Below are positions 3,001-16,330 of a stretch of DNA of 20,000 bases, one piece after another. Source of the stretch: an uncultured virus (IMG/VR IMGVR_UViG_3300045996_000435). Its lineage: Duplodnaviria > Heunggongvirae > Uroviricota > Caudoviricetes. Numbering within the stretch: position 1 is the stretch's first letter; every line of letters starts with the position of its first letter. The position numbers and the translations under genes are program-made. Location: IMG/VR virus record IMGVR_UViG_3300045996_000435; one strand, written 5' to 3'. The notes beneath the pieces are model-generated. The model was not told where the DNA came from. It did no database searches and worked only from the letters and a program-made list of their open reading frames with translations.

Positions 3001-6000
3001 ATCGTTATCCGGAATATATTGAGTTACTTAAGATCCTTAATGATTATCGAGTTCATGAAAAAACTGGTCTAGATAAGATATTAATGCTTACAAAGTTTAG
3101 ACAAGACTTCTCTAGAAGCTTTGTTCCAGTATATGAACTTATCTATGATGCTAATACTCTTGAGTATAAAGTAGACGAAACAACTAAGAATAACTTTAAA
3201 GCTATTAAGAAATTATTTGATGATAATTTTATTAGTCGTGATGAAAATAAATATATAAAGAAAGATAAGGATGGTAATAACTATTTAAGTCCTCTTATTT
3301 TAGAAGATTTTAATCCTAATGGGTTTTCTAATAAAGGTACAAGAATTAAATTCTTGGATGCTTTAGGAATTACGTTTTCAGCTCCTGCCATTAAAGATAG
3401 TAGATTTGATGATATCGTAAATAGTTCTAGGCTTACTTTTATTTACAATGGTATTAAGCAATTGCTTGATGCTAATGTAAAGATCATGAACCCAACTGAA
3501 GATCTTAGTAATAATAGTCGTTATGCTAAATTTGGTTTCTTTGGAGAAACTGGAAATCTTAATGCTCTTATTGCAATAGAGTCTAAATATAACTCACTTA
3601 ACCCTACAGCTTCTATGCAGAATGCTGAAGGTAATACTGTGTATGCACTTCAATTAAGAAATGCTATTAGTACTATATCTGATTATTTATCAGATTATGT
3701 AAACTATCCAACTTATCAAGATTTAATTAGTGAACCTCATTTGGCGTTTTTAGATTTTACTAAAAATCCTTATGTTAAGAATTCTATCTGGTTAAACAAT
3801 ATGTTTGTACTAGATGAAGAAAGTATACATTTTGGTAAAAGAAAATCTGTAGATGGTATTTGGAACCCTGAGAAATTAGATCCTGTTGTTATACAGATAG
3901 TCAATTTTAATGGTTTGAATGTTGACGCCGAAGGTCTTGATTTAGGTAAGACAACTACACGTTTGTACGTTGGTGATAAGATGGTTCAGGACTTTACTAC
4001 ATTACTTAAGGCAAGTGGTGGATTTAAAGAAATGATGAGAGCTGGAGATAAATCTAGTGCATTTGCTGTTAAATTCTCTTCTTATAGTCAAGCTTTAAAT
4101 AACCAAAGTAATTTACCAATAGATACTTCTGCATTTAAGAATAATTTGTTTGGAGGTAAGGATTTCTTAAATATAATGAGTGGATACTTATTTGATGAAC
4201 TTAAACGTATTCAAGATTATAAGTATAAGAAAGTAGGTACTGATCTTAAAGCATTTGCTTTAGGTGAAATTAATCTATTTAGAGATTTACTTACTTCTGA
4301 AACTAAAACCTCTATTGTAGAGGCTTTAACAGGAGATGCAGATATTAATACAATTATTAACAATCATGCTGCTAAGTTAAGAACTGAACTAGCTGTTTAC
4401 TTTATTAAACAATTTAATAGTAGAGTTGACAGCTTTAATGATAAGGGTCTTAGAGTTCATATAACAGGTACTGATAAGTTTGGAATGTATCAATTAGGAG
4501 AAATGCCTAAATGGGTTTCTAAAGATTTGATTACTCCTTATAAAGTAGCTGGAGAAGTTATTACTCCTACTTTTAGTCAGTTACTTAGATCTTATATTGT
4601 TAATGCATTTATACTTAATGTAGAGCAAACAAAGATATTTAATGGAGATGGGGCTTTCTATAAAGATTTTCACAAAAGGAATTCTAAAGATAGTGCCACT
4701 AAAACAACGATGACAACTGATTCATTCTTTTTGGATTGGTTAAACTATAGTCCTAATACTAACTTACAGAGTAAACTCCTTGGAGTTTATAATTCTGTTT
4801 CTAATGTAATTAATAGTGTTATCTTTAAAGATAATGAAGTACCTTCAGCTTATATAGATTCTTATAAAAATACAGTAAGGGCTTTGCTTGAAGAAGAATA
4901 CCTTGATCCTGAAAAAATTGAGGAGACTATTAATCGTATAGAAAGTAAGTATGGTAAGAATAATGAAGGGGATGCTCAAGGGTGGATTACTCTTGACTTT
5001 TACAGAACGTTTAAATTGTCTCAAGGTAAATGGTCTACAAAGCATGAAAATGCTTATCGTAAGATTATTATGTCTGAGTTTTATACTAAACAACTAGATA
5101 CAGCGAGTTCTGAACAAGCTCGTAAAGATATACAATCAAAGATAGGAGAGAATAAACTTACTGGAGAAGAGATGGCCTATTTTGTGCCAGTTAAAGCTCA
5201 ATATGCAGGTCCTCTTGTATATAAGGGTCTTTATGCTCCTGCCTTTCATAAGTTCTCCCTTGTGCCTCTAATTCCCTCTCTGATAAGGGGTACAGCACTC
5301 GAGCATCTAAACGAAAAGATGATTCGTAGTAATGTTGGTTATGGTTTGTTCGAGTCAGGGTCTAAGGTAGCTAGTATCCAGAAAGAAGTTAATGGTAAAA
5401 ATGTTCATGAAGATTTCTATTTAGATTATACTTCTAGAACACCTGTAGATCGTAATAGTACTTTTGATACAGTAAATCCAGTTTATAGTCACTTCTTAGG
5501 GGAGCAAGTTAACATTGAACCAAAAACACACTCTGATGTAATCTTTGGAACTCAATTTAGAAAGCTGTTATTTCAGAACCTATATAATCAGGGAGAACCT
5601 TTAGATGCTGAAGTTGGAAAACTTTATCATGAATTTTCTGATGTACTTGCTAAAATGATACAAGTAGAAAAGAAAAGATTGTTTAAAGATTTAGGAATTA
5701 AAGAAATTAAACGTGGTAATGAAACTTACTATGAAGCGGCTAACTATGAAAAACTAGTTGACACTTTAATTCGTGAGGTTAATCGTCGCGATTTAAATGA
5801 TAACGTAAAGAGATACTTAGAATATGATAAGAGTACTGGCAAGTTCAAATATCCTTTAGATGGATCTATGAACAGAAAAGAAATCGAAACTCTTTTAATG
5901 TCTCTTATTAATAATAGATTAGTACGTCAAAAAATGAAGGGAGACTTGATGATTCAAGTTGCATCTTCAGGATTTGAGTCTACTATTAAGCCTGTTTTAG

Positions 6001-9000
6001 CTACTGAAGAAGAAAGGCTAGAATATGGTACAAATGGGTTGCGTACTTATTATTTAAAAGGTGGTGAAGTAAGAGTATCTGAAGTCAAAGTTCCTTTAAC
6101 AGAAGACTTTAAGAACTTACTTTATTTTAAACATACGGATGGTAATCATATTGGAACGTTAGAGCGTCTCAATGAAATGATGAGAAATGAGACTTGGAGA
6201 AAAGAGCACCGAAAATCCTTAAGGATGGTTGGTTATCGTATTCCTACCCAAGGTCTTAATTCTATAGAATCTATGGAAGTTAAAGAATTTTTGCCAGAAG
6301 AAGCTGGTAATATAATTATACTTCCTACGGAAATTGTAACTAAAGCTGGTTCCGACTTTGATATTGATAAACTTTCTATATTTAAACCTTCTATTGCAGT
6401 TAAGAAAAAATTAACTCTTAATGAGAAAGGTAAATGGATTGAGGAAGTAGATACTGCTTACTATGTACGTTACAGAAAAGAGTTTAGAGATTACTATGAA
6501 ATGAAGGATAAAGTAGAAGCTAAGTATGAACCTTTAATACAATCATACAGAAATAAGTATGATCAGTATATGAAGGATTTAGAGTCTATTTATAGGGAAT
6601 TTAAAAGAACTGCTGGCGTAGGTAATATAGAGAATTATGTATTAGAAGTACAAACTCAAATTGAACTTATTAAAGATCAGCGTGATCTTCTTAAAATAGA
6701 GTTAGAATTAACTACTAGTTATGCTGAATGGAAGAAATTAAAATCTTCAGATAAGAAGTATGCAAATTCTTTAGTAAATCTTAACAGTGAATTATTACTT
6801 CTTACAAGTATGATTCATAATCAGAAAGCTTTACTTACTGAAGAGCAGATTGCTAATCTTGAGAGTCTAAACTTAAATATGTCCAAATCTTTACAGGCAG
6901 ATCTTAAATCTTTGCTTAGTAAAGACGGTAAATTATTTAAAGAAAGGCAAGCAGTTCAGAAGAAGTTTAGAGAATTAATTCTTCAGAAGAAAGAAGCTTT
7001 AAGGGAGGCTCTTGATTACAAGAATGGTTTGCAGAATAGGGTAATTGAGATTGCTGATAAGATCATGACAGATGATAGAAACTTTATTCAGGTTATTACT
7101 CCTAATGATACATTCTTAATTAAACCTCTTATTACAGATAAAGGTGGTATTAAAGATAGATTAGGGTTTAATAAAGTTAACTATACTGGTACTAATATCT
7201 ATACTGAAGCGACTCAAGAAGAGAAGTTTCAGGCAGGTCTTGTAGGTAAGAAAGCTTTAGGTATTGCAGCTATAACTAATACTTATATGCAGCTTTTCCA
7301 AAAAGTTAAACTTCATATTAATAGAAATTATACTAATATATTTAAAGATGAGCCTAGTAATCATACTGTCCATCATTATTTATTACCACAAGAATATGCT
7401 GGTATAATGAGAGATGCTAGTGGTAGGGTTGTTGGGTATGATCTTAGTCAGAAGTATGATGCTGAGGGTGAACTTAAATCAGAGTTTGCATCTCAAATGA
7501 TTAATGCTTACGTTGACGTATTAAATGATGATTTCATTTTCTATGGTAATGCTGGTTTGGATGTAGCTCCTGTATTGTTTTACTTAAAGAATGTTGGAGT
7601 TCCTACTAAGACCATTCTACATTTTATTAACCACCCTGTTATAAGAGCTTATATTGCTCAAACACAAGCGTCGAAGTCTATTGTTCTTGAGACAATTAAT
7701 CACTTCGAAACTATGCATGATATTGGAGAAACTGAGCAAGGTGTAGTAAGTAAATTACTTGGTACTAAAGAAAGTGTATGGGCGATTGTAGGTACAGATG
7801 ATTTATCAGAATACTTTAATGGGGAACTATTAAATCAACGAATAGATAACAAGTTAAGCGAAATACCTTTAAGAGAGAAAGCAGCTATACTAGCTCATTA
7901 TCTTGAACTAAAGCAACAAGCAGAAATGCTTAGAAAGTTACAAGCTTCTACTAACTTTGATACTAATACTTTTCAGACTCCAATAGACGCTGATATTCAA
8001 GTGGATATGAAAGGAATGGTTAAGGCTACAAAAATGTTTAATAATGAAGCTCTTGACAGGATAACTGGTGAGACTGTTATTAAAGGGTTTAATGTATCGA
8101 AAGTAGTTAATGATATCTTCGAACAGCTTCTTCCTGTTACAGGGTCTAAGTTCTTTAGGAGTCAAGCTCTTCGCGCATTTAAAGCTATAAGTAAGATTAA
8201 CTTTGAGATTGATCAGAATAAAGTAGTTAAAACATTTACAAATGATTTTCTGCTTTACTTACTTACTAAATATTCTACTGTACAGTTAGGAAACCAAGAA
8301 CAAACTCTTTACAGTTATGTTATGCCTATGTTTGCCTACAATGGACATGGTGTAGATAATAGATTAGCTTCTAAATTAATTAAGTTTAAAGCTGATCCAG
8401 TAAATAGAGACTTAATTAATAAGTATCCTTTAATTCAAAATCTAAAGGCAGAGTATTTTGGTAACTTAGGAAACATTAAATTAACTCGTCAAGATAATTC
8501 CAGTGAAGCTCAAAATTCATTTATTGAGCAGTTTGAGGAATTAATCAGGCATCCTGACAGTAAAGTAAGAACTTTATTTAAGAATATAGCTTTGTTCTCT
8601 ATCTTCCAAAGTGGAGTTACTAAGAGTCCTATATCTTTTACAGATATAATTCCTAGTCACTTTTATACAACTTATATGTTAAAAGCTATAAGTAAGTATA
8701 ATAAACTTAATGAAGGAGAAAAACAAGCTTTATTCCAAGAGTTCTTTGGCAGGTTTTATGTTAACAACTTAGGGCTTTATGGTGAAGTCGCAAGTGTACC
8801 TTCTTATAGGTTTAAGAACTATGGTCCAGATGTTATGGTAGTTACTCCTAAAGGGAATAGTACACAATTCTTTAATGATCAAGATTTTCTTCCACCTGTA
8901 CAAGGACAATTATTTACAAATGATAATTCTAGTATAATTTATTCTAAGTTAGGAGATAAGACTGTATCAGGTAATGTTAAATTAGAATCTTGGTCGCAAT

Positions 9001-11582
9001 TAAAAGATGCTAAAAAAGCATTTACAGATATTTATGGTTCTATCGTACATATAATCTCTACCCGTATACACGGATCTAATGAGCATTTTGGTAATCCATT
9101 TTCTCATGATCCAGCAGGAAAGACTCAAGGACTAATTAAAACTAATACTATTAAAGAAGCTGTACAAAATTATATTGACTGGTTAACAACTAATAAATTT
9201 GAGAGCGTCCAGCCAGGTAGAAGGCAATGGATTATAAATCAACTTAAATCTGAAAACTTAAAAGATAAACCTATTCTTTACTTTAAAGAATTAGGGGAAC
9301 CTTCTCATGCTACGGCCTTAGATTATTTAATTAATAAGTATGATTGGAATAATAATTCTATTACTATTAATAAACAAGAGTTATACACTCAAGATAGATT
9401 AGATAAAGCACTAGGAACTCAAAATACTTTTATGTCTAACTTTCATCAATTAGAAAATCCTATTATTGATGAATTTGGAAATCAATATTGGAATTCTGAA
9501 GGTTACTATATGGCTTTAAGAACTCAAGATCAATCTATTAAAAAAGAAATAGCTCAATTTTCTAAACAAGGTGGTCAAGTAGCTAGAAATGCTAGATCTA
9601 AATATTCTCTCGATATGCATGAGAATAATAGATTAGAGTATATGAGGAAAGCTATTAAAGCTAAATTTGATAATAATCCTAGGTTAAGAGCTGAATTGTT
9701 AAGTACTGGTAATAAAGAGATAATTGAGAAAAATTATTGGAAAGATGATTTGTTTGGTGTCAGAATAGATACAAGGCAAGGCGCTAATATTTTAGGTAAG
9801 CTTTTAATGGAGTATAGATCTACTATTCCTGGAGCCCAAAAAGATTTGTTTAAAGGAGATTCTTTTAAAATAGGTGGACAACAAAATGAAGTTGAAGTTA
9901 ATTATAAACTTAAAATAGTTAGAGCTTTAAATCATCCAAAAACTAAAAGCTTATTTACAAAGTTTTTCAAAAATAACTCTGAAAAATTTTATAATGAACT
10001 TTATAATTTAGGTGTTGGTAAACCTCAAGTAGAGTATTTACAAAATTGGGCAAACCAAAATAATCCACAATCTGTAGAAGATCTTATAATAGGTATACAA
10101 TCTGAATTTGCTTATACAATCGAAATAGAAACTACAGGGGATAGAGAGAGTTTAATTTCTAGAGATAATTTTGTTATTGTTGACCAAGAAGATTTTCTAA
10201 GAGCCGTTCCTTATACAGGAGTGGAATCGTTAGGTACTTATGATTTTGGTTATGGTTCTATTCGACATAATGATAAATATTATTTTTTAGAACTAGGAGA
10301 AGGTCAATATGGAAAAATAGAAAAAATAAAAGCTAAACAATTAAAGAAGTTTACACCGTCAAATTATTATGATAATTTAACTGTTCCTGGAGGAATTAAT
10401 TATAGAGAACATGAAATTAAAACTCCTGAAATTAATTTCTCTATCAAAGGACATGCTAGATTTTCTACACATGAAGGTATAGGATGGTTTAGAACTGATG
10501 ATAAAGAAAAAGCAACTTCAGATAGAAATTATTATAAAAGATATTTGGAGAGTGGTTTATATAAAGGAGAGTACACAGCTTATGAGGATGTTACTGTTGA
10601 TAGGGATTTTAATAAATGGGTAGATAATAAGAAAAAAGAAGATGATTTGTTTGATTCTTCTCAACTTAATACAAGACGTATTTTAGAAATGCAATCTGAT
10701 TTATTTCAAAAAGGTCGAAATAAAGAATTTCTTATTGATACTCCAGTTTTTACAGTAAATAAAGGAGAAGGTGAAACATGGCAGTTATGGAAGAATGATG
10801 GTATATTAAAGCAACAAATAGGTACTTATGATACTGATGCTGCAGCTCAAACAGAACGAGTTCTTGCTCAAAGACAGTATGAAGACGCTAAGCAATCAGA
10901 GAATTTATTTATTCAACTACTTAATAAGGATAATAACTGGATAACTTTCTTTATTAAAGCTATTATACAAGATAGTACTAAAAAAGGATATGATTCTATT
11001 TTATTTCCTCAAGGAGATACTGCTTCTAAAGTTGAAGGTCATGAAACATTAGAAAGTTTTAAACTTGAAAAAGAGAAAGCAATTAAGAACTTAGAAGAGA
11101 TTATAAATAATGGGGGCATTCAGTATGAAGTAATTAGTATGGAAGATGGAGAACCCTATGATTTATATAATACTTTAGATGAAGCTCAGGATGTTCAACG
11201 AGATTTAAATTCTCGATCTACAGATTTTGGTTATAATATAGTAGATCGTACAGCAAACATTGAGGATTTAAAGCGAGAAATAGAACAATACAAAGCTGAA
11301 CTTACTAGACTTAATACTGAAGGATTTACTGCATTAAAACCAATACATAATTTCTATCAAACTATTGTTTATAATATACTTAAAAAGCATGGTTATAATC
11401 CTACAGAAATTAAAGATGAACACAACAATGGTTGGTATGAAGTAAAAATACAACCTTTCTTTAAAGATGATATCTATTTTATTGGAAAAAATACTGAAGA
11501 AAATTTGGAAAATTCAATAAAATTACCTACCTTGCAAGATTCTGAATATTTAGAAATGTTAAAAAAGTGTAAAGGAATATAA
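27..11582 (+). CDS. Giant single-chain virion DNA-dependent RNA polymerase polyprotein (crAss-like, phi14:2 gp66-type) with fused zincin protease and C-terminal accessory domains; may start upstream of the window
   Basis: 3851-aa ORF. Catalytic loop GSDFDIDK (DFDID at 6354-6368) preceded by GYRIPTQG (6231-6254). Upstream motifs GDAQGWIT (~4968), HKFSLVPL (~5247) and FESGSKV (~5349) fit the second barrel half. DFDID in place of DxDGD is characteristic of crAss-like virion RNAPs. The frame is open from base 3 (ANEDDEYK-M), so the start is uncertain. Confidence 0.92.
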   Translation: MAGELFDPKTLESVQKVVQAALKDGKNNFVDIMKFAAKHISKDKLQNVYNKMRAGYAFVYAQLSEKGQLIEDPAFLVNLMNNKYTLDDILAMAAAPVTQQEKVVPYADLREENIANRDFRAGVLYKTAAQDFEVLDIDGNKIYSKDIKKEPVAARRRNFLSYLYKEVERSGKTPTDLGFFGLMTKDSLAYPHDAEDVAFLTTKPEAAGEIIVLVDKDLQPIKINDKGEPDANGEVLTMYFESPEKLRKRADKEGDLKSVCKLNNLITYSPQGDEVFDFNTAREMLTNAAENIEHLRAEVKDNKQVLVTFNQVTPGIRQTSKEGVTTTFLIGKNVKAHLMDTPIKKGGNIGYSSTAKNKKGRLGYAYVDYKGDFIELQRDILPDNIIELISYVINNRDTIDATTKEELKTFFRNIKKNSQLDINVYTGRVTLEGTVLTPDQFAVELKRAVLSFSSDVINQNFKEFYLENGELKSRVTPYNDFMFRYYKMFVKLDENGEPLFANAYLAYQPSNVMEIIKGEQNVEEIKKQEQEEVKAEEVITPLEVRVEGVNKTKEEILKEIAERKAKLQKKADNVDVRLRKDEGNITGLPRSIYLENDTDLTVSPEEQDWFKTTLAGVYSGKFASRHMKLVKELINSDSWGLFAESGTILVENAPEGTLYHEAWHEFTQLYLTLKEKKALYNEARKQGESDYQVEERLAEEFRAYALKPRKPKYSIFERILNFIKQTFFGKVSVDVLFDKLYKGEINKYNPSINNIQFKRLNAGIADSAGNELFSNKRTQTLIKTIDKLIYDYIHNVQGWSLYRVFNEEHVLFAAYTYAYKQFIDKDLEKQNQFEEAIVREEDPVKLEKIYAEMESHRDLYDRVINNFTTILEHHKKNSRTFVITEDEISGVYDEAGNIIFEEEGDDTNTEKASKVFDQKAGNEISSIDGANKETRALVRGLARRVDENNIYINEFGFPELVDFAQTWNNLALNLANTYEFDKILVKLDNLKNRYPEYIELLKILNDYRVHEKTGLDKILMLTKFRQDFSRSFVPVYELIYDANTLEYKVDETTKNNFKAIKKLFDDNFISRDENKYIKKDKDGNNYLSPLILEDFNPNGFSNKGTRIKFLDALGITFSAPAIKDSRFDDIVNSSRLTFIYNGIKQLLDANVKIMNPTEDLSNNSRYAKFGFFGETGNLNALIAIESKYNSLNPTASMQNAEGNTVYALQLRNAISTISDYLSDYVNYPTYQDLISEPHLAFLDFTKNPYVKNSIWLNNMFVLDEESIHFGKRKSVDGIWNPEKLDPVVIQIVNFNGLNVDAEGLDLGKTTTRLYVGDKMVQDFTTLLKASGGFKEMMRAGDKSSAFAVKFSSYSQALNNQSNLPIDTSAFKNNLFGGKDFLNIMSGYLFDELKRIQDYKYKKVGTDLKAFALGEINLFRDLLTSETKTSIVEALTGDADINTIINNHAAKLRTELAVYFIKQFNSRVDSFNDKGLRVHITGTDKFGMYQLGEMPKWVSKDLITPYKVAGEVITPTFSQLLRSYIVNAFILNVEQTKIFNGDGAFYKDFHKRNSKDSATKTTMTTDSFFLDWLNYSPNTNLQSKLLGVYNSVSNVINSVIFKDNEVPSAYIDSYKNTVRALLEEEYLDPEKIEETINRIESKYGKNNEGDAQGWITLDFYRTFKLSQGKWSTKHENAYRKIIMSEFYTKQLDTASSEQARKDIQSKIGENKLTGEEMAYFVPVKAQYAGPLVYKGLYAPAFHKFSLVPLIPSLIRGTALEHLNEKMIRSNVGYGLFESGSKVASIQKEVNGKNVHEDFYLDYTSRTPVDRNSTFDTVNPVYSHFLGEQVNIEPKTHSDVIFGTQFRKLLFQNLYNQGEPLDAEVGKLYHEFSDVLAKMIQVEKKRLFKDLGIKEIKRGNETYYEAANYEKLVDTLIREVNRRDLNDNVKRYLEYDKSTGKFKYPLDGSMNRKEIETLLMSLINNRLVRQKMKGDLMIQVASSGFESTIKPVLATEEERLEYGTNGLRTYYLKGGEVRVSEVKVPLTEDFKNLLYFKHTDGNHIGTLERLNEMMRNETWRKEHRKSLRMVGYRIPTQGLNSIESMEVKEFLPEEAGNIIILPTEIVTKAGSDFDIDKLSIFKPSIAVKKKLTLNEKGKWIEEVDTAYYVRYRKEFRDYYEMKDKVEAKYEPLIQSYRNKYDQYMKDLESIYREFKRTAGVGNIENYVLEVQTQIELIKDQRDLLKIELELTTSYAEWKKLKSSDKKYANSLVNLNSELLLLTSMIHNQKALLTEEQIANLESLNLNMSKSLQADLKSLLSKDGKLFKERQAVQKKFRELILQKKEALREALDYKNGLQNRVIEIADKIMTDDRNFIQVITPNDTFLIKPLITDKGGIKDRLGFNKVNYTGTNIYTEATQEEKFQAGLVGKKALGIAAITNTYMQLFQKVKLHINRNYTNIFKDEPSNHTVHHYLLPQEYAGIMRDASGRVVGYDLSQKYDAEGELKSEFASQMINAYVDVLNDDFIFYGNAGLDVAPVLFYLKNVGVPTKTILHFINHPVIRAYIAQTQASKSIVLETINHFETMHDIGETEQGVVSKLLGTKESVWAIVGTDDLSEYFNGELLNQRIDNKLSEIPLREKAAILAHYLELKQQAEMLRKLQASTNFDTNTFQTPIDADIQVDMKGMVKATKMFNNEALDRITGETVIKGFNVSKVVNDIFEQLLPVTGSKFFRSQALRAFKAISKINFEIDQNKVVKTFTNDFLLYLLTKYSTVQLGNQEQTLYSYVMPMFAYNGHGVDNRLASKLIKFKADPVNRDLINKYPLIQNLKAEYFGNLGNIKLTRQDNSSEAQNSFIEQFEELIRHPDSKVRTLFKNIALFSIFQSGVTKSPISFTDIIPSHFYTTYMLKAISKYNKLNEGEKQALFQEFFGRFYVNNLGLYGEVASVPSYRFKNYGPDVMVVTPKGNSTQFFNDQDFLPPVQGQLFTNDNSSIIYSKLGDKTVSGNVKLESWSQLKDAKKAFTDIYGSIVHIISTRIHGSNEHFGNPFSHDPAGKTQGLIKTNTIKEAVQNYIDWLTTNKFESVQPGRRQWIINQLKSENLKDKPILYFKELGEPSHATALDYLINKYDWNNNSITINKQELYTQDRLDKALGTQNTFMSNFHQLENPIIDEFGNQYWNSEGYYMALRTQDQSIKKEIAQFSKQGGQVARNARSKYSLDMHENNRLEYMRKAIKAKFDNNPRLRAELLSTGNKEIIEKNYWKDDLFGVRIDTRQGANILGKLLMEYRSTIPGAQKDLFKGDSFKIGGQQNEVEVNYKLKIVRALNHPKTKSLFTKFFKNNSEKFYNELYNLGVGKPQVEYLQNWANQNNPQSVEDLIIGIQSEFAYTIEIETTGDRESLISRDNFVIVDQEDFLRAVPYTGVESLGTYDFGYGSIRHNDKYYFLELGEGQYGKIEKIKAKQLKKFTPSNYYDNLTVPGGINYREHEIKTPEINFSIKGHARFSTHEGIGWFRTDDKEKATSDRNYYKRYLESGLYKGEYTAYEDVTVDRDFNKWVDNKKKEDDLFDSSQLNTRRILEMQSDLFQKGRNKEFLIDTPVFTVNKGEGETWQLWKNDGILKQQIGTYDTDAAAQTERVLAQRQYEDAKQSENLFIQLLNKDNNWITFFIKAIIQDSTKKGYDSILFPQGDTASKVEGHETLESFKLEKEKAIKNLEEIINNGGIQYEVISMEDGEPYDLYNTLDEAQDVQRDLNSRSTDFGYNIVDRTANIEDLKREIEQYKAELTRLNTEGFTALKPIHNFYQTIVYNILKKHGYNPTEIKDEHNNGWYEVKIQPFFKDDIYFIGKNTEENLENSIKLPTLQDSEYLEMLKKCKGI
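1830..2290 (+). other. Zincin-like metallopeptidase domain within the RNAP polyprotein (boundaries approximate)
   Basis: GTLYHEAWHEF (HExxH at 2004-2018) followed ~30 aa later by EERLAEEFRAY (candidate third Zn ligand, 2106-2129) and an amphipathic helix IFERILNFIKQTFF. Confidence 0.85.
8934..9345 (+). other. DUF4326-like domain within the RNAP polyprotein (cysteine-free variant)
   Basis: STR...HFGNPF (GNPF 9090-9101)...EAVQNYIDWL...LKDKPILYFKELGEPSHATALDYLIN follows the DUF4326 layout (R...GNPF...Y..WL...L.GK.L.C.C....CH...L), with the Cys positions replaced. Confidence 0.6.
9420..9821 (+). other. NADAR (YbiA-like) domain within the RNAP polyprotein
   Basis: FMSNF...NSEGYYMA...MRKAIKAKFDNNPRLRAELLSTGNKEIIEKNYWKDDLFG...GANILGKLLMEYR matches the YbiA/NADAR pattern (SNF; E..Y/F.A; KF.....L...LL.T....L.E....D..WG....G.N.LG..LM..R). 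Confidence 0.88.
9880..11460 (+). other. Polyvalent-protein-associated domain of unknown function (PGG.NYRE / GWFR.DD / E.QSD / GYD.I.FP motifs)
   Basis: Motif series VPGGINYRE (10383-10409), KGHARF, GWFRTDD, RILEMQSDLFQKG (E at 10686) and WITFFIKAIIQDSTKKGYDSILFP (~10938-11009). I recognise this series from large phage virion/polyvalent proteins but cannot name the family reliably. Confidence 0.5.
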
Positions 11583-14500
11583 TGACCTGCCCTAATTTTA
11601 AAGACTCGAATTACGCAAAGCTAGAAGCTAAAGTTGGCTCATTGATGGCTTATAAATTGTGGTATCATTATGATGAACCTACAATACATAATGTTATTAC
11701 TGAAGCAGAAGCTCGCTGGTATAAAACTAAACAGAGACTTATAGATAAATTCCACCTAAAGAAGTGGCCCTCTATACCGGAGGATCTCTTTGTGGAGATA
11801 GATTCTTGGATGAGAAATCATACTAAGTATCAGGAATTTTATCCTGTATATGAACCATGGGCTAAAAAGTCTGGGTACTTAAATCTGAAATTTAAAGACA
11901 ATAAAGTTCAATCTGAATTTAAAGATGAAGAGGCAAACTTAAAAGATTTAGGAGTTCGATTTAAACAATGGAAAGATAGTCATCCTCCACAATTGGATAT
12001 TTTTACACAAGAAGTTTATAAAATTGGGGGTAGTTCTTCTTTAGTGGATGAATTAAACAATGCACGTACGAGCAGAACTAAGATGTCGTTTGATCAAATG
12101 ATCGAAGAAGCAAGAATCCAGCTCGAAAAACTGCTAGGTGTAAACAAAAAAGGTTTAAAGCTAGAAGAACAAACAAAAAAAGACCTATACGAACTACTAA
12201 AATTCTTTAGAGATCCCAGTAAATTAGGGCAACTAGAGACAATGACTACGTACTTTGTAGAGGTTAATACTATTCTAGAGCATTATAGAGATAGAGCTTT
12301 AAAGGCCAGTGAAATTGATACATTATCAGCTAAGATTATGGAGCTATTGTTCCTTAAACAAATGGCTAATTCATTTAAACCTTTTATTGATCAACTTAAT
12401 GCTGAATTTGCTGGTACACCTAGAGACAATAAAGTAAAAGAGTTGCTTGAGAATATGAACAATAGTATTACTACTATTGAATCTATTTATAGTAGAGATG
12501 TATTTCAGTCAGTAGTAGATTCTTTATATGAAACTACTGATCCTGTTGTACAGAATTTACAAAAGGAATTAGCAGACGAAATTGATTATCTAAGGAAACG
12601 CCAAGATATTCTTAAACAAAGAGGAGATCAAAAACGTGTTGATAAGTTAGAAAAGAAAATAGAAGATCTACAAAAAAGAAAAGGTAAAATTATACCTACA
12701 AAAGATTTGTTAGCTTTAACTCTTTCGGGACAAAATGGGGATGCTAATTTTATATCCATGTGGCTTGAGGCGACTATTGCTTCAGGTGATCCTATTGTGG
12801 CAGGGTTTGCTAAGAAGATTAAAGATTCCTTTAATACTATTAGAGTAAACATGCTACCTATGAAGAATGACGCTCAAACGATACTTGATAAGTATTCACG
12901 CATAACTGGAAGGGATAAAGCTAATAATGCTAAATTCTTCGAAGGATTATATGAAGTTATAGATGTACCTACACATGATGACGATGGTAAAATAACACAT
13001 AAGAAAGCCTATTCTTTAATAGGTGAGTTTAGTGCTCAATTTGATAAGGATGAAGCTGATTTTAAAGCTAAAATACAAACCCTTAAAGATGAACATAAAG
13101 ACGACGAAGCTGCTGCCGTAGAAAAAGAATATGAGGAATGGTTAGGTATTTGGGCTGAAAGACGTTATACAAATGAATGGTATGAAGCTTCTAAGCTATT
13201 AACACCTAAAGCAAAAGCAGCCCAAGATGAACTACTAGAACAAATTACTCGCATTACTAGAGGCCCTAATCGTAATAACTTATCAGAGATAGAACTAGAT
13301 GAACTAGAAGAGCTCTGGGGTCGTTATAAAGCTTTAGGTTCATTAGTTTACTTTGGAACAGGTGTACGTAAAACTGGAGATGATTTAGAGATGGCACTTT
13401 CTGTGCGAGCTTATCGTAAAGAAAGAGCTAAAATGCGTACCTTCGAGCTTACTGAAAACGGTAAAAGTAACTTTGAAATTGCACAAAAGAGACAAAAAGC
13501 TTTCTTAGATGCAGGTCGAATTACTCAAGAACAGTATGATAAGTGGTTAAGAAGATTTACGTCTCTTCGTATTGACCCTGAATTTTTTAAGAAGCGTCAA
13601 GCAATACTTGATCGTATTAATGCTGTAATGTCTAAGATACCTAAAGACCTTTTAGGTTCAAGGGAAAGTGTTACAGAGCTTTGGGAGAATCTTATTTCTG
13701 TAGGTAACAACAACAGGGATGAAGATGGTATTATAGATGGCGGAGAGTTAAGTGAAAATGAATTTTATAATGCTCGTTATTATGAGTTAAAAATAGACCA
13801 ATTAAAAGAAGACTTCTTACGTCTTAGTGGACTAACTACTAATCAACAAAAAGAACTTCAGACACTGGTTGATATTCCTTTAGAGGATAGGACTGAAGAA
13901 CAGAATGAAAGAATAACTGAATTATTTAATTCTAAAGCTTGGTTTAAAAGTGAATTAGCTAAACACGTAAGTTCAGCAGAAATAAAGGCTTTATTTGGTT
14001 ATTGGGAATCTCTTGGACAAATCCAAACTAAACAGCCTACTAAGTACTATGAAGAAAGATATAACTTCGAATTCGAAGCTTATTTTAATAAGATTCCTGA
14101 ATCAATAGATTGGAGTCTTAATGAAAAAATGGAAGCCTTTAAACAAAGTAATTGGTATAAAGAAAATCATATAACAAGGACTCGCAAAACTAAGAATGCA
14201 GATGAAAGTTTTGAGATGGAAGAATATGAAGAACCTTTATATATATGGAATCATGTGCTTCCTAGCGATGAAAGTTATATACAAGAAGGATACCCTTCTA
14301 TACATTTCCAAGAAATTGTAGTACACGATATTTATAAGAACCCTAACTTCCAAGAACTAGATACCAACGGTGGATACCATACTCCTAAAGCTATTGTAGA
14401 TAACAAACCTTCTAAATACCTTAATAGTAATTTCCAAGAACTTAAAGGAAAAGCTGCTACTGGAGATGCTGTTGCTAAAGTACAGTTAGAAATGTTAGAA

Positions 14501-16330
14501 TTTTTAACTCGAAACTATAAAGAAGGTCAACGAAAAGTTGGAGTTGGTGCAGCTCTTAATATGAAGCTAGTCATTCCTTCTATAGAAAAGGATTGGTTAT
14601 CTCGTTTACAAGACAGTAATGGAGTAGGTGGAGTAGGTAAGCAAATAGGACAATATGTTAAACGTCGTTTAACTGTTAACGAACAGGATAAAGATATTAT
14701 TCTTGGTGACTTAAGTGGTATTGAGTTTAGATACTTACCAGTAAAGTATACTGGAAATATTGAACTTGATGATGTGAGTCTTAATTTAATGGAATCTATT
14801 ATACAGTTCTCTTTAATGGCAGAACAGTATAAAACATTAAAAGAAGATATACTTCCTCTATCAGAGGCTCTTAAAGACATCTTAAGTGCAGATCAGAACA
14901 AAGCTAGTACAGGTAAATTTGATGCCCTTCTTCGTAAATTTGGAATACAAAGAGTAGTACGTAAAGAAGGAGAGTCTAACAGATTTAAACAAGTAGACGA
15001 GTTCATACGTTCTGTACTTTATAATGAAACAGAAAAACAAGAGAAATGGTTAGGTAAAAACACAACTAAAATTATTGATTCTCTCTTATCAGCTTCAGCA
15101 GTACAGATGCTCGCCTTGAACTTACCTTCCCACGCTGTGAACTTAATTTCTGGAGAGATACAATCTTTGATTGAAGCAAATGCTAATAAGTTTTTTACTA
15201 AAAAGACTTGGGCTAGGGCTAAAAAGATATATGCAGCTAATGTAGGAGAATTCTGGAAAGACTACCAAAAAGAAGGTAATCAATCTTTAATTACTCAATT
15301 ATCTTATTTGTTTGATGTTCCTCAAGGTGAAGCTTTTGATAAATTCGGAGCTAAGACTGACTGGAGTAAAATTAGAGAAGGTCGTGGTTGGTTGTTTATG
15401 ACCAAAAACATGGGTGAACATGAGATACAAGTAAGTACCATGATTGCCATGCTTATTAATAAAAAAGTTAAAATGGGAGACCAAGAGGTTTCTTTGTTTG
15501 AGGCTTATGAATTAAAAGATGGTAAAGTACAATTAAAAGAAGGTGTAGAGTTTTCTAATACAGAGTTTAATACTTTGACTGGTAGAATGCACTCTATTCT
15601 TAAGGATCTCAATGGTAACTATAATAAATTTGACAGGCCTTTAATTGAGAAATACTCAATGGGTAGAATGCTTTTCTTTATGAGAAAGTATTTTGTACCT
15701 TTGATGTCAAGAAGGTTCTCTCCACTCCATGTGGATATGGAGGCTGGCACATTTAAAGAAGGTTATTACAGGACATTTTGGAGAATATTCTTTAACGACC
15801 TTAAGCACTTACAATTAACTATAGGAGAAAACTGGCATGATCTAACTCTAGAAGAGAAACAAGCAATGCATAGAGTAATTATGGAAGCCGGTATTATCCT
15901 TACCCTTATGCTCTTGTTACTATTGTTAGGCTACTATGATGATGATAGAGATATAAGTCTTGACGAAGATCAAGGAGTTAGCAGTTTACACTTTTGGAAA
16001 TTACACTTAATGTATTTAACATTACGTGCCAAATCGGAAGCTGAAAACTTTATTCCTGCACCTGGATTAGGATTTAACGAACTTTATAATCAGGGTACAA
16101 CCTTTACTTTATCCTGGAGGTATCTTGGAAATCTAATGCAAATTACAGAGCAGCTTGGTTATCTTTTAACAGGTAACGATAAAGCTATCTATGATCGTAG
16201 ACAAGGTATATGGGAAAAAGGTGATTGGAAGCTATGGGCTAAAATGGGTAAAGTATTTGGCTTTACAGGAAATACACTACACCCAGATGTCATGCTTAAA
16301 AACCTTGAAAACGCACAACGGGTCAAATAA
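11582..16330 (+). CDS. Large alpha-helical virion (ejection/cargo) protein of the crAss-like RNAP module, with C-terminal hydrophobic helix
   Basis: 1582-aa ORF coupled to the RNAP gene by a TAATG overlap (11580-11584). Coiled-coil-rich, one Cys only, hydrophobic stretch AGIILTLMLLLLLLGYY (15887-15937). C-terminal GRMLFFMRKYF...EGYYRTF...W..LT..EK resembles the giant proteins adjoining crAss-like RNAP genes. Function is inferred from context. Confidence 0.7.
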   Translation: MTCPNFKDSNYAKLEAKVGSLMAYKLWYHYDEPTIHNVITEAEARWYKTKQRLIDKFHLKKWPSIPEDLFVEIDSWMRNHTKYQEFYPVYEPWAKKSGYLNLKFKDNKVQSEFKDEEANLKDLGVRFKQWKDSHPPQLDIFTQEVYKIGGSSSLVDELNNARTSRTKMSFDQMIEEARIQLEKLLGVNKKGLKLEEQTKKDLYELLKFFRDPSKLGQLETMTTYFVEVNTILEHYRDRALKASEIDTLSAKIMELLFLKQMANSFKPFIDQLNAEFAGTPRDNKVKELLENMNNSITTIESIYSRDVFQSVVDSLYETTDPVVQNLQKELADEIDYLRKRQDILKQRGDQKRVDKLEKKIEDLQKRKGKIIPTKDLLALTLSGQNGDANFISMWLEATIASGDPIVAGFAKKIKDSFNTIRVNMLPMKNDAQTILDKYSRITGRDKANNAKFFEGLYEVIDVPTHDDDGKITHKKAYSLIGEFSAQFDKDEADFKAKIQTLKDEHKDDEAAAVEKEYEEWLGIWAERRYTNEWYEASKLLTPKAKAAQDELLEQITRITRGPNRNNLSEIELDELEELWGRYKALGSLVYFGTGVRKTGDDLEMALSVRAYRKERAKMRTFELTENGKSNFEIAQKRQKAFLDAGRITQEQYDKWLRRFTSLRIDPEFFKKRQAILDRINAVMSKIPKDLLGSRESVTELWENLISVGNNNRDEDGIIDGGELSENEFYNARYYELKIDQLKEDFLRLSGLTTNQQKELQTLVDIPLEDRTEEQNERITELFNSKAWFKSELAKHVSSAEIKALFGYWESLGQIQTKQPTKYYEERYNFEFEAYFNKIPESIDWSLNEKMEAFKQSNWYKENHITRTRKTKNADESFEMEEYEEPLYIWNHVLPSDESYIQEGYPSIHFQEIVVHDIYKNPNFQELDTNGGYHTPKAIVDNKPSKYLNSNFQELKGKAATGDAVAKVQLEMLEFLTRNYKEGQRKVGVGAALNMKLVIPSIEKDWLSRLQDSNGVGGVGKQIGQYVKRRLTVNEQDKDIILGDLSGIEFRYLPVKYTGNIELDDVSLNLMESIIQFSLMAEQYKTLKEDILPLSEALKDILSADQNKASTGKFDALLRKFGIQRVVRKEGESNRFKQVDEFIRSVLYNETEKQEKWLGKNTTKIIDSLLSASAVQMLALNLPSHAVNLISGEIQSLIEANANKFFTKKTWARAKKIYAANVGEFWKDYQKEGNQSLITQLSYLFDVPQGEAFDKFGAKTDWSKIREGRGWLFMTKNMGEHEIQVSTMIAMLINKKVKMGDQEVSLFEAYELKDGKVQLKEGVEFSNTEFNTLTGRMHSILKDLNGNYNKFDRPLIEKYSMGRMLFFMRKYFVPLMSRRFSPLHVDMEAGTFKEGYYRTFWRIFFNDLKHLQLTIGENWHDLTLEEKQAMHRVIMEAGIILTLMLLLLLLGYYDDDRDISLDEDQGVSSLHFWKLHLMYLTLRAKSEAENFIPAPGLGFNELYNQGTTFTLSWRYLGNLMQITEQLGYLLTGNDKAIYDRRQGIWEKGDWKLWAKMGKVFGFTGNTLHPDVMLKNLENAQRVK

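What the first reader, a model, noticed from the sequence alone, without database searches (positions are those of the whole stretch)
9420..9821. Virion-delivered NADAR domain: candidate pre-emptive anti-DarT defence
Seen: a complete NADAR domain with acidic residues kept at the conserved positions (SEGYY, IIE, KDDLFG), although the family's WG reads FG. Established: NADAR proteins are the antitoxins of DarT1 and remove ADP-ribose from guanine in DNA; DarTG systems are anti-phage; E. coli YbiA is an N-glycosidase. Inference: fusion to an injected RNAP would place a de-ADP-ribosylase on the incoming genome from the start of infection.
Basis: partly seen in the sequence, partly recalled or inferred. 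Interest (0 to 1): 0.75.

Follow-up and report, generated by a model that had tools for sequence, protein, structure and literature searches.

The report
NADAR domain inside injected phage polymerase
A crAss-like phage carries an intact ADP-ribose-removing (NADAR) domain in the tail end of the giant RNA polymerase it packs into its particle and injects, so it probably arrives with a ready-made antidote to host ADP-ribose-based immunity, though the host system it counters is not known.

Summary
Residues 3132-3267 (window 9420-9827) of a 3851-aa ORF are a full-length NADAR domain (Pfam E 2.7e-17). The model is confident (pLDDT 93.5) and matches the ADP-ribose-bound Phytophthora NADAR and E. coli YbiA. 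The ribose- and phosphate-binding residues are invariant across its clade.

The host protein is an orthologue of the virion-packaged, translocated RNA polymerase gp66 of Cellulophaga phage phi14:2. It keeps the SDFDIDK catalytic motif and the neighbour-gene synteny.

The DarT1-specific reading is only weakly supported:
- The domain belongs to the YbiA-like (catalytic Glu) branch, not the DarT1-antitoxin branch.
- In 401 sampled genomes of the presumed host phylum, all 30 DarT loci examined had Macro (29) or ARH (1) partners, never NADAR.
- The NADAR-containing defence pairs found there were PRTase-NADAR (DS-32-like).

The NADAR also forms a recurrent two-domain cassette with an adjacent DUF4326-like module. 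This cassette is shuffled among giant crAss-like polymerase proteins.

Phage NADARs that counter DarTG1, and virion packaging of NADARs, are already in print. A NADAR fused into the crAss-like virion polymerase did not turn up in my searches.

Verdict: a new variant of a known kind, of moderate interest.

The parts
27..11582 (+). Giant ORF (3851 aa, P0001): crAss-like virion RNA polymerase polyvalent protein
   Evidence: Open frame. tblastn hits 111 phage records, all crAss-like by name where named. Pairwise E 3e-30 to phi14:2 gp66.
2004..2018 (+). HEAWH (HExxH) zincin-type motif, aa 660-664, in a stretch conserved with crAss-like homologues
   Evidence: Motif position. The region aa ~620-750 aligns with crAss-like proteins. 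No Pfam peptidase family was found, so the peptidase role is inferred.
3927..6404 (+). RNA polymerase core homologous to phi14:2 gp66 (aa 1301-2126)
   Evidence: tblastn E 7e-23 to g066 'Catalytic RNA polymerase subunit'. GYRIPTQG and SDFDIDK align with the same motifs in gp66.
6354..6368 (+). DFDID catalytic metal-binding motif (aa 2110-2114)
   Evidence: In gp66 each Asp of this motif is needed for RNA synthesis.
8937..9350 (+). Module A (aa 2971-3108): DUF4326-like domain with motifs HFGNPFSHD and GEPSHATALDYLINKY
   Evidence: 540 library hits at E<=1e-3, mostly inside giant proteins. Pfam DUF4326 is below cut-off (12-13 bits in the window; 17.7 bits in P0197). The model has pLDDT 89.3. There is no PDB fold match. 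The BFVD top rows are enriched for DUF4326 proteins at weak scores.
9420..9827 (+). NADAR domain (aa 3132-3267), the finding itself
   Evidence: Pfam E 2.7e-17. Model pLDDT 93.5. Foldseek gives 8bau TM 0.72 and 2b3w TM 0.67. Clade invariants are E3158, R3165, R3202, E3234, D3240 and F3243.
9864..11486 (+). Module C (aa 3280-3820): unnamed domain block shared with other giant metagenomic proteins
   Evidence: About 36% identity to P0003, P0008, P0009, P0018 and others. No Pfam, NCBIfam or PADLOC family. No lead from the ESM Atlas.
11582..16330 (+). Next gene (1582 aa, P0002): homologue of phi14:2 g065 'RNA polymerase associated protein'
   Evidence: BLASTP E 6e-22 over about 600 aa, in the same gene order as phi14:2 g066-g065.
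17009..17713 (-). ThyX thymidylate synthase (context: replication module on the other strand)
   Evidence: Pfam Thy1 E 1.4e-35.
18400..19998 (-). Family A DNA polymerase, running off the window (context)
   Evidence: Pfam DNA_pol_A E 2.2e-39.

Best explanation
The stretch encodes a catalytically intact, YbiA-like NADAR (ADP-ribosyl N-glycohydrolase) domain. With the DUF4326-like module just upstream it forms a mobile two-domain cassette. The cassette sits in the variable C-terminal 'effector array' appended to the body of a crAss-like phage virion RNA polymerase.

Proposed mechanism: the whole protein is packed in the capsid as cargo, pushed through the tail partly unfolded, and refolds in the cytoplasm. 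The NADAR is then present before any phage gene is expressed. There it cleaves ADP-ribose-type N-glycosidic adducts made by host immunity. The most likely substrates are ADP-ribosylated guanine, and perhaps cytosine, in the incoming DNA or in RNA.

Shown here: the domain, its fold, its conserved pocket, its cassette partner, and orthology of the carrier to a packaged, translocated polymerase.

Inferred: that the C-terminal array travels with the polymerase, that the domain is active, and what its substrate and host target are.
For: Domain and fold:
- Pfam NADAR E 2.7e-17.
- Model pLDDT 93.5, matching the ADP-ribose complex 8bau (TM 0.72) and YbiA (TM 0.67).

Pocket. Of the eight ADPr contacts named for the Phytophthora enzyme, mapped through the alignment:
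- Kept: E43=E3158, R79=R3190, R93=R3202, E125=E3234, D130=D3240.
- Changed: K50->R3165, W89->H3198, W133->F3243.
- E3158, R3165, R3202, E3234, D3240 and F3243 are invariant in 26 of 26 clade members at 44-62% identity. This argues for purifying selection on an active site.

Published activity: all NADAR families tested hydrolyse G-ADPr. The YbiA and NADAR families also hydrolyse C-ADPr, on DNA and RNA. Three unrelated phage NADARs restore phage growth against DarTG1.

Carrier:
- SDFDIDK and GYRIPxQG align with gp66.
- The next gene matches g065.
- Both phi14:2 proteins are annotated from virion mass spectrometry.
- gp66 must be translocated with the DNA.
- crAss001 polymerase-associated proteins are capsid cargo, ejected partly unfolded.

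Modularity typical of arms-race effectors:
- The NADAR is 64% identical to that of P0012 and 59% to that of L001, while the polymerase cores share only 28% and 24%.
- Free-standing genes reach 66% identity.
- 7 of 68 giant proteins selected only through module A carry a NADAR.
Against: - No activity was measured.
- K50 is replaced by Arg. In E. coli C7 NADAR the K95R mutant worked in vitro but did not rescue cells.
- W89 and W133, which contact the pyrophosphate, are not kept.
- Nothing shows that the C-terminal 900 residues stay on the packaged protein. phi14:2 gp66 (2180 aa) has no such extension, and no virion proteomics exists for this phage.
- A domain forced through the tail must refold.
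- The DUF4326-like partner, and that module's other partners (AAA_33 kinase, SLOG), fit processing of soluble ADP-ribose derivatives at least as well as DNA repair. That is the published prediction for phage NADARs.
- The host and its ADP-ribosylating systems are unknown. No genome is held for the window.
Confidence: 0.55

Rival explanations
1. One reading: the injected NADAR is specifically an anti-DarT1 factor. It strips ADP-ribose from guanines that DarT1 puts on the incoming phage DNA.
For: - DarT1-linked NADARs and three unrelated phage NADARs (T4 AdfN, Bas32, Bas60) reverse DarT1 modification. The latter two neutralise DarT1 even without phage.
- The pocket is conserved.
- Delivery with the genome would be well timed, because DarT acts on phage DNA early.
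Against: - The domain has the YbiA-type Glu, not the DarG1-type Asp.
- Its profile does not find the DarT1-linked 8bat at E<=10, and the fold match is TM 0.45.
- E. coli YbiA and T4 NADAR failed to protect cells from DarT1.
- In 401 sampled genomes of the phylum of G001, DarT was found in 34 genomes (39 matches). Of the 30 loci examined, 29 have a Macro partner, 1 has ARH and 0 have NADAR. NADARs do not remove thymidine-ADPr.
- None of the 36 NADAR matches lies near a DarT match.
- Caveats: 9 weaker DarT matches were not examined, the host phylum is inferred, and I did not check that PF14487 detects DarT1.
Confidence: 0.15
2. The DUF4326-like + NADAR cassette works on soluble ADP-ribose or NAD-derived molecules rather than on nucleic acid. 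It would destroy immune signals or toxic ADPr derivatives, or recycle ADPr, as soon as the phage enters.
For: - Module A and NADAR are adjacent in at least 11 of 18 NADAR-bearing giants, in either order. The count is 13 of 18 when P0037 and P0046 are added. They are also adjacent in P0150, P0167 and P0189.
- Module A is also adjacent to AAA_33 kinases (P0175, P0178, P0184), is fused to a cpYpsA SLOG domain (P0177), and is fused to ART-PolyVal (P0108).
[quoted passage not shown] - In host genomes, NADAR genes sit beside NAD synthase, a PfkB kinase and a zeta/AAA_33 kinase.
Against: - Every NADAR activity demonstrated so far for phage proteins is on DNA or RNA bases.
- The DUF4326 assignment of module A is weak: Pfam is below cut-off, and BFVD gives E 0.02-5 with TM up to 0.5.
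- Module A is also fused to an AlkB-like dioxygenase and lies in proteins with RecD/PIF1 helicases. That fits nucleic-acid work.
Confidence: 0.25
3. The injected NADAR is an orphan copy of the NADAR partner of PRTase-NADAR defence pairs (DS-32-like), or of other non-DarT toxin-NADAR pairs such as YarT-YbiA. It neutralises what those toxins make.
For: - Of 10 second-tier NADAR loci in the sampled phylum, 5 are two-gene pairs with PRTase-CE.
- All 5 PRTases pass the NCBIfam DS32_1 cut-off. The NADARs score 235-274 bits on DS32_2, whose cut-off is 240.
- One pair lies beside an OLD-family ATPase-TOPRIM gene.
- DS-32 is a validated anti-phage system, proposed to be a case of toxin-antitoxin partner swapping.
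- A YbiA-family enzyme is the antitoxin of the ART toxin YarT.
Against: - The window's NADAR scores only 40.4 bits on DS32_2, so it is not a close copy.
- The roles of the two DS-32 proteins are not established.
- NADAR antitoxins are pair-specific in cells.
- DS-32-like pairs were seen in only 5 of 401 genomes.
Confidence: 0.1
4. The NADAR protects the phage from ADP-ribosyltransferases of phage origin, either its own or those injected by competitors. It would act as an immunity domain rather than as an anti-host-defence factor.
For: ART-PolyVal occurs in related giant proteins (P0015). In P0108 it is fused directly to module A. ARTs are the commonest modifying enzymes in polyvalent proteins.
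Against: No ART family was found in P0001 or P0002 at E<=0.1. The rest of the phage genome is not available.
Confidence: 0.05
5. The domain is a metabolic or RNA-repair enzyme with no role in conflict. It could be a YbiA-type N-glycosidase of riboflavin intermediates, or a helper of tRNA repair.
For: The best NCBIfam hit is TIGR02464, the riboflavin intermediate N-glycosidase (53.9 bits). An association of NADAR with RNA repair has been proposed.
Against: - The score is below the family cut-off of 73.7.
- No riboflavin, ligase or KptA gene is in the window.
- A metabolic enzyme has no obvious reason to be packed in a virion and shuffled among effector arrays.
Confidence: 0.05

Closest known systems
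Phage anti-DarT factor NADARs (T4 AdfN/gp30.3; NADAR of Bas32 and of Bas60)
   Same: Phage-encoded orphan NADAR domains. They have guanine-ADPr glycohydrolase activity and a counter-defence role.
   Different: Those are free-standing proteins made after infection. T4-type NADARs have His at the catalytic position and match Pfam Phage_30_3. The window's domain has Glu, gives no Phage_30_3 hit, and is embedded in a virion polymerase.
DarG1, the NADAR antitoxin of DarT1 (E. coli C7; Geobacter lovleyi, PDB 8bat)
   Same: Same superfamily and the same chemistry on ADPr-guanine.
   Different: DarG1 has Asp as the key catalytic residue, an N-terminal basic extension for ssDNA, and a DarT1 neighbour. 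Here the residue is Glu, there is no profile match to 8bat, the fold match is TM 0.45, and no DarT neighbour is present.
YbiA-family NADARs (E. coli YbiA, PDB 2b3w; Chondromyces YbiA, antitoxin of YarT) and Phytophthora NADAR (8bau)
   Same: These are the best sequence and fold matches. They share the catalytic Glu. These families remove G-ADPr and C-ADPr from DNA and RNA.
   Different: The window's domain is below the TIGR02464 cut-off. Arg replaces the phosphate-binding Lys, and Phe and His replace the two Trp residues. It is fused rather than free.
Polyvalent virion proteins of phages (Iyer et al. 2017, PMC5512222; 2022, PMC9503650)
   Same: Giant multidomain proteins, predicted to be injected with the DNA and to carry several effector domains. 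Virion-packaged NADARs have been predicted.
   Different: The 2017 text mentions neither NADAR nor crAss (0 occurrences each). The 2022 text calls viral NADARs 'typically standalone' and has no occurrence of 'crAss'. I did not read the supplements of either paper.
crAss-like virion RNA polymerase gp66 of Cellulophaga phage phi14:2
   Same: Homologous core, the DFDID motif, and a downstream g065-like gene.
   Different: gp66 is 2180 aa. The window's protein is 3851 aa. It has about 750 extra N-terminal residues, and a C-terminal array of about 900 residues (module A, NADAR, module C) that gp66 lacks.
DS-32 anti-phage system (PRTase + NADAR)
   Same: A NADAR in phage-host conflict. DS-32-like pairs are present in the presumed host phylum.
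   Different: It is host-encoded and paired with a PRTase. The window's NADAR scores 40 bits against a cut-off of 240.

Membership tests
NADAR superfamily (Pfam PF08719) | Sequence score above the curated cut-off over the whole domain | tested here: met
   63.9 bits against a cut-off of 35.1, profile positions 9-162 of 163.
NADAR superfamily (Pfam PF08719) | YbiA-like alpha+beta fold | tested here: met
   Model pLDDT 93.5. Foldseek: 8bau E 3.4e-7, TM 0.72; 2b3w E 9.1e-6, TM 0.67. The next unrelated row has E 1.9.
NADAR superfamily (Pfam PF08719) | Residues that hold the distal ribose and phosphates (E43, K50, E125 and D130 of the Phytophthora enzyme) | tested here: met
   E3158, E3234 and D3240 are kept. 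K50 is Arg3165. All are invariant in 26 of 26 clade members. W89 and W133 are replaced by H3198 and F3243.
NADAR superfamily (Pfam PF08719) | Hydrolysis of ADP-ribosyl-guanine | not testable with these tools
   This needs an enzyme assay.
DarG1 (DarT1-associated NADAR antitoxins) | Asp at the key catalytic position (D171 of E. coli C7 NADAR) in place of the YbiA-type Glu | tested here: not met
   The aligned position is E3234, with Ile two residues upstream (alignment read).
DarG1 (DarT1-associated NADAR antitoxins) | Sequence or fold likeness to a solved DarT1-linked NADAR, including its N-terminal extension | tested here: not met
   The clade profile finds no 8bat hit at E<=10. Foldseek to 8bat gives E 2.6, TM 0.45.
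DarG1 (DarT1-associated NADAR antitoxins) | Gene next to a DarT1 toxin gene | tested here: not met
   The domain lies inside a phage polymerase gene. No DarT family was found in P0001 or P0002. An orphan counter-defence copy would also lack this neighbour.
T4-type phage NADAR (AdfN, Pfam Phage_30_3 PF08010) | Match to PF08010 and His at the catalytic position | tested here: not met
   PF08010 is not among the hits at E<=0.1. The residue is Glu.
YbiA family (NCBIfam TIGR02464) | Score above the equivalog-domain cut-off | tested here: not met
   53.9 bits against a cut-off of 73.7. The Glu signature of the family is present.
DS-32B NADAR (NCBIfam NF053876) | Score above the cut-off and a PRTase neighbour | tested here: not met
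   40.4 bits against a cut-off of 240. There is no PRTase in the window.
crAss-like virion RNA polymerase (gp66 family) | Homology to gp66 with the DFDxD motif | tested here: met
   BLASTP E 3e-30. SDFDIDK aligns with SDFDIDK of gp66. tblastn E 7e-23.
crAss-like virion RNA polymerase (gp66 family) | Conserved neighbour (g065-like polymerase-associated protein) | tested here: met
   P0002 against g065 gives E 6e-22, in the same order and strand.
crAss-like virion RNA polymerase (gp66 family) | Presence in the virion and translocation into the host | not testable with these tools
   Shown for phi14:2 gp66 and for crAss001 cargo proteins. Here it is inferred by orthology.
Polyvalent phage proteins | Several unrelated effector-type domains in one giant polypeptide, with domain order shuffled among relatives | tested here: met
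   Modules A, NADAR and C recur at different places in 61 giant proteins, alongside helicase, AlkB-like, ART-PolyVal and kinase domains.
DUF4326 (Pfam PF14216), for module A | Score above the cut-off | tested here: not met
   12.1-12.9 bits in the window against a cut-off of 25. The best relative, P0197, scores 17.7 bits.
DUF4326 (Pfam PF14216), for module A | Fold likeness to DUF4326 proteins | tested here: inconclusive
   BFVD: many of the 45 rows are named DUF4326, but the best named row has E 0.055 and TM 0.41. PDB searches gave nothing above Z 2.7.

The most novel reading that the evidence does not exclude
The DUF4326-like + NADAR cassette is a pre-packaged, protein-level 'universal antitoxin'. 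crAss-like phages swap it among their injected polymerases. It would neutralise NADAR-guarded toxin systems of Bacteroidota before any phage transcription. Candidate targets are the PRTase-NADAR DS-32 pairs found here, or other base-ADP-ribosylating or ribosylating toxins. Tethering to the polymerase would keep it on the entering genome.
Probability: 0.15. Interest if true: 0.75.

Novelty: new variant of a known kind. Interest (0 to 1): 0.5.

Why it matters
crAss-like phages are among the most abundant viruses in gut and marine Bacteroidota, yet almost nothing is known about how they evade host immunity.

If the array at the end of the virion polymerase is injected and active, counter-defence enzymes reach the cell before the first phage transcript. 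This matters against defences that modify incoming DNA within minutes.

It would also turn the variable ends of these giant proteins into a readable catalogue of what their hosts use against them.

The recurrent pairing of NADAR with the DUF4326-like module gives a concrete two-domain unit in which to test what DUF4326 does. Its function has been predicted but never measured.

Tried and rejected
- Megablast of the whole window against 50,697 phage records: no match.
- Pattern search for close relatives of aa 2960-3275 in IMG/VR: 11 pattern matches, none confirmed. The metagenome scan gave only 3 distant loci at 36-52% identity. So I found no near relative of this phage and no fuller genome.
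- No whole genome is held for the window. Host assignment, and a search for phage-encoded ARTs or NAD salvage genes, were therefore not possible.
- Pfam on 20 overlapping pieces of the giant protein at E<=1 named nothing except NADAR and a faint DUF4326.
- PHROGs named only the NADAR.
- PADLOC gave only a candidate family, PDC-M42C, at 2.6e-6 for the NADAR.
- Module A: Foldseek on PDB gave no match with E<=0.001. VIA-align against 48,161 chains gave a best Z of 2.7. I therefore do not claim a fold.
- Module C: the ESM Atlas gave only unnamed clusters at 0.83-0.84.
- A joint alignment of module A relatives and NADAR relatives with the two-domain stretch was misaligned by MAFFT. I discarded it and folded the two domains separately.
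The substituted positions (Arg, Phe) are invariant across the clade.
- An alternative genetic code for this phage was considered, because the nearest cellular NADARs come from candidate-phyla MAGs. I rejected it because 3851 + 1582 codons are open under table 11.
- I did not build a tree with characterised NADARs. Published work shows that in-vitro G-ADPr activity is shared by all families, so placement would not settle the substrate.

Full report
**What is there.** The window holds one giant open frame, 27..11582 on the + strand, 3851 aa. It is followed by a 1582-aa frame whose ATG shares its A with the stop codon of the first. Three or more genes lie on the other strand, among them ThyX and a family A DNA polymerase. 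G+C is about 31% throughout.

Pfam places a NADAR domain at aa 3132-3267, which is window 9420-9827. The match has E 2.7e-17 and 63.9 bits against a cut-off of 35.1, and covers positions 9-162 of the 163-position profile. PHROG 1017 covers the same residues.

**Is the pocket intact?** Schuller et al. 2023 (PMC11543638; passages read) name the ADP-ribose contacts of the Phytophthora enzyme: E43, K50, R79, W89, R93, E125, D130 and W133. They show that the equivalents of E43, K50 and the 125-position residue are needed for guanine de-ADP-ribosylation.

I mapped these through the HMMER alignment to chain 8bau_A, whose chain index runs two ahead of the paper's numbering. The window has:
- E3158, R3190, R3202, E3234 and D3240 kept;
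- R3165 for K50;
- H3198 for W89;
- F3243 for W133.

I aligned 25 free-standing relatives at 44-62% identity. S3157, E3158, R3165, R3202, E3234, D3240 and F3243 are invariant in that alignment. So Arg and Phe are fixed traits of a clade under constraint, not signs of decay. The W89 position is mostly Asp or Glu in the clade.

AlphaFold2 with that alignment gives a confident model (pLDDT 93.5, pTM 0.88). Its only significant PDB matches are the ADP-ribose complex of Phytophthora NADAR (E 3.4e-7, TM 0.72) and E. coli YbiA (E 9.1e-6, TM 0.67). I could not superpose coordinates to measure the pocket.

**Which kind of NADAR?** The paper states that the YbiA family has Glu at the 125 position, DarT1-linked NADARs have Asp, and T4-type phage NADARs have His. 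The window has Glu. Other tests agree:
- A profile of its clade finds YbiA (8.5e-15) and 8bau (5.2e-12), but not the DarT1-linked Geobacter NADAR 8bat at E<=10.
- The fold match to 8bat is poor (E 2.6, TM 0.45).
- NCBIfam gives TIGR02464 at 53.9 bits (cut-off 73.7) and the DS-32 NADAR model at 40.4 bits (cut-off 240).
- Pfam Phage_30_3 is not hit.

So this is a separate YbiA-like clade. It is not a DarG1 copy and not a T4-type AdfN.

**The carrier.** tblastn of aa 1-3000 finds 111 phage records. Where named, all are crAss-like: Bacteroides crAss phages, 'uncultured phage cr...', and Cellulophaga phi14:2. Residues 1301-2126 match phi14:2 g066, 'Catalytic RNA polymerase subunit' (E 7e-23). In the pairwise alignment GYRIPTQG and TKAGSDFDIDK line up with GYRIPNQG and TKTGSDFDIDK of gp66 (E 3e-30).

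The next gene matches g065, 'RNA polymerase associated protein' (E 6e-22). Gene order and the switch to opposite-strand genes are the same as in phi14:2.

Published evidence on the carrier family:
- Both phi14:2 proteins are annotated from virion mass spectrometry.
- The preprint on gp66 (passages read) shows it is a DNA-dependent RNA polymerase. Each Asp of DFDID is needed. [quoted passage not shown]
- For crAss001 the three polymerase-associated proteins were detected in virions and placed in the capsid cargo zone. They are expected to pass the tail partly unfolded and to refold (PMC10172136, passages).

Relative to gp66 (2180 aa, DFDID at 1361), the window's protein has DFDID at 2110. It continues about 900 residues beyond where a gp66-sized body would end. 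The NADAR lies in that extension.

**The extension is a shuffled effector array.** A search with aa 2950-3851, among proteins of 2118-6740 aa, gave 61 giant metagenomic proteins. BLAST mapping splits the extension into three modules that occur independently and at different positions:
- module A, aa 2971-3108;
- the NADAR;
- module C, aa 3280-3820.

The same proteins carry RecD/PIF1 helicase, AlkB-like dioxygenase, ART-PolyVal, AAA_33 kinase and other domains.

The NADAR is far more similar between proteins than their polymerase cores are:
- It is 64% identical to the C-terminal NADAR of P0012, whose polymerase core is only 28% identical.
- It is 59% identical to the NADAR in an IMG/VR giant frame of at least 4740 aa (L001), whose core is 24% identical.
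- Free-standing NADAR genes of 155-188 aa reach 66% identity.

So the domain moves as a cassette between free genes and polymerase genes.

How common is the fusion?
- Among the 80 best viral NADAR loci in IMG/VR, 3 lie in giant frames and 77 lie in frames of 139-248 aa.
- With an ad hoc NADAR HMM, 10 of 61 giants carry a NADAR. That set is biased, because the query held a NADAR.
- 7 of 68 giants found through module A alone carry one.

**The neighbour module.** Module A has 540 library hits at E<=1e-3, most of them inside giant proteins that also hold a DFDxD motif. Its motifs are HFGNPFS and GEPSHATALDYL.

NADAR and module A are adjacent, in either order, in at least 11 of the 18 NADAR-bearing giants by motif position. 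The count is 13 of 18 when the coordinates of P0037 and P0046 are added. They are also adjacent in three mid-sized proteins: P0150, P0167 and P0189.

Module A is also adjacent to AAA_33 kinase domains (P0175, P0178, P0184). It is fused to a cpYpsA SLOG domain (P0177), to ART-PolyVal (P0108) and to an AlkB-like domain (P0170).

Its link to Pfam DUF4326 is weak by score: 12-13 bits in the window and 17.7 bits in P0197, against a cut-off of 25. It is also weak by fold: many BFVD rows are named DUF4326, but E is 0.02 or worse and TM is at most 0.5, and nothing turned up in PDB. The partner list does fit what Iyer et al. [quoted passage not shown] I therefore call it DUF4326-like, tentatively.

**The host side.** Crassvirales are described as infecting Bacteroidetes (PMC10136315; abstract start seen in the search listing only). 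One giant relative is labelled 'uncultured Flavobacterium sp.'.

No genome is held for the window. I therefore used as centre a MAG titled 'uncultured Sphingobacterium sp.' that carries a NADAR of this clade (handle G001). I sampled 401 genomes of its phylum. The tool does not name the phylum, and I take it to be Bacteroidota.

DarT (PF14487):
- It was found in 34 of 401 genomes, as 39 matches.
- I examined 30 loci. The adjacent gene is a Macro-domain protein in 29 and an ADP-ribosylglycohydrolase in 1. It is never a NADAR.
- I did not examine 9 weaker or fused matches.

NADAR (PF08719):
- It was found in 34 of 401 genomes, as 36 matches.
- In the four genomes that hold both families, the two lie on different contigs or at least 240 kb apart.
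- Of the 10 second-tier NADAR loci I examined, 5 are pairs with a PRTase-CE protein. These match the NCBIfam models of the DS-32 anti-phage system. DS-32 is a validated PRTase + NADAR pair of unknown mechanism (bioRxiv 10.1101/2025.01.08.631726, passages).
- I did not examine the 23 top-scoring NADAR loci.

So DarTG1 was not found in the genomes searched. DarTG2, whose thymidine adduct NADARs cannot remove, is the common form there. I did not verify that PF14487 recognises DarT1, and the host phylum is an inference.

**What is known about activity.**
- Cihlova et al. 2024 (sections 2.1 and 2.2 read): DarT1-linked, sigma70-linked, YbiA and T4 NADARs all hydrolyse G-ADPr in vitro, and none hydrolyses T-ADPr. 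YbiA and T4 NADAR did not protect cells from DarT1. A myxobacterial YbiA is the specific antitoxin of the ART toxin YarT.
- Mikolcevic et al. 2026 (section 2.4 read): the NADAR and YbiA families also remove C-ADPr from DNA and RNA. DarG1 and T4 NADAR do not.
- Johannesman et al. 2024 (abstract and one section read): T4 AdfN, and the unrelated NADARs of Bas32 and Bas60, counter DarTG1.

In-vitro activity on ADP-ribosylated bases is therefore likely for this domain, and possibly with the wider G+C, DNA+RNA range of its branch. The physiological target cannot be read from the sequence.

**Verdict.** The best reading (0.55) is an injected, pre-made ADP-ribosyl N-glycohydrolase cassette that serves counter-defence. 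Processing of soluble ADP-ribose derivatives is the main rival (0.25). A role against PRTase-NADAR or YarT-like systems is a bolder option (0.10).

**Novelty.** Already in print are phage NADARs against DarTG1, polyvalent virion proteins, and the prediction that NADARs are packaged and used early. I did not find a NADAR fused into the crAss-like virion polymerase, nor the recurrent module A-NADAR cassette in these proteins, in four places:
- the text of the 2017 polyvalent-protein paper (0 occurrences of NADAR or crAss);
- the 2022 survey (0 occurrences of 'crAss'; viral NADARs called 'typically standalone');
- full-text searches for 'polyvalent proteins'+NADAR (3 papers) and 'crAss-like'+NADAR (4 papers);
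- a search for NADAR+virion+'RNA polymerase'+phage (36 papers, of which I saw 12 titles).

Of the four papers I opened one, which lists a free NADAR gene only. I did not read any supplements.

Noticed in passing
window 8937-9350 (aa 2971-3108): Module A is a very widespread and highly conserved domain (up to 72% identity) with motifs HFGNPFS and GEPSHATALDYL. It has 540 library hits, mostly inside giant DFDxD-bearing proteins. It is also fused in small proteins to ART-PolyVal, AlkB-like, AAA_33 kinase and SLOG domains. It has a confident model but no PDB fold match. It is only weakly DUF4326-like.
   Followed up: partly
window 11520-11579 (last ~20 aa of the giant ORF): The protein ends ...LEMLKKCKGI. 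Free-standing module A proteins end in a similar tail (hydrophobic residues, then K/R-C-K/N, for example ...FKCK...FRCK...KKCN). It may be a conserved C-terminal signal for packaging or processing.
   Followed up: no
window 9864-11486 (aa 3280-3820): Module C is shared at about 36% identity with many other giant metagenomic proteins, at varied positions. It matches no Pfam, NCBIfam or PADLOC family, and the ESM Atlas gave no lead.
   Followed up: partly
window 2004-2018 (aa 660-664): An HEAWH zincin-type motif lies in a stretch conserved with crAss-like homologues. It could be an autoprocessing peptidase that releases the effector modules. No Pfam peptidase family was detected.
   Followed up: no
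P0087-P0104 and loci L083-L090: One subclade of the NADAR relatives has Trp where the others have invariant Gly (SEWYYM, LWKLLMEYR). The nearest genomic copies come from Peribacteria, Absconditabacteria and Gracilibacteria MAGs. This looks like TGA read as Trp in predicted proteins of organisms that read TGA as Gly.
   Followed up: no
loci L123, L124, L125, L127, L128 (genomes G170, G072, G036, G322, G353): PRTase-CE + NADAR gene pairs match the NCBIfam DS-32 models in the sampled phylum. In L128 the pair lies beside an OLD-family AAA_15-TOPRIM gene. In L124 a PIN-domain gene follows.
   Followed up: partly
locus L120 (G212:C1): A divergent DarT (55.6 bits) is followed by a 528-aa ADP-ribosylglycohydrolase (ARH) instead of Macro or NADAR. 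This may be a third kind of DarT-antitoxin pairing.
   Followed up: no
G292:C1:1393285, G392:C1:1623720-1624382, G076:C12:6111: DarT-like domains are embedded in long open frames of 743 to 1959 aa in the sampled genomes. These are not the usual two-gene form.
   Followed up: no
P0063 (4023 aa), aa 946-1077 and 1093-1223: A giant protein with two NADAR domains in tandem, and no module A.
   Followed up: no
window 11580-11584: The stop codon of the polymerase gene shares its last base with the ATG of the next gene (coordinates). This fits translational coupling of the two cargo proteins.
   Followed up: no
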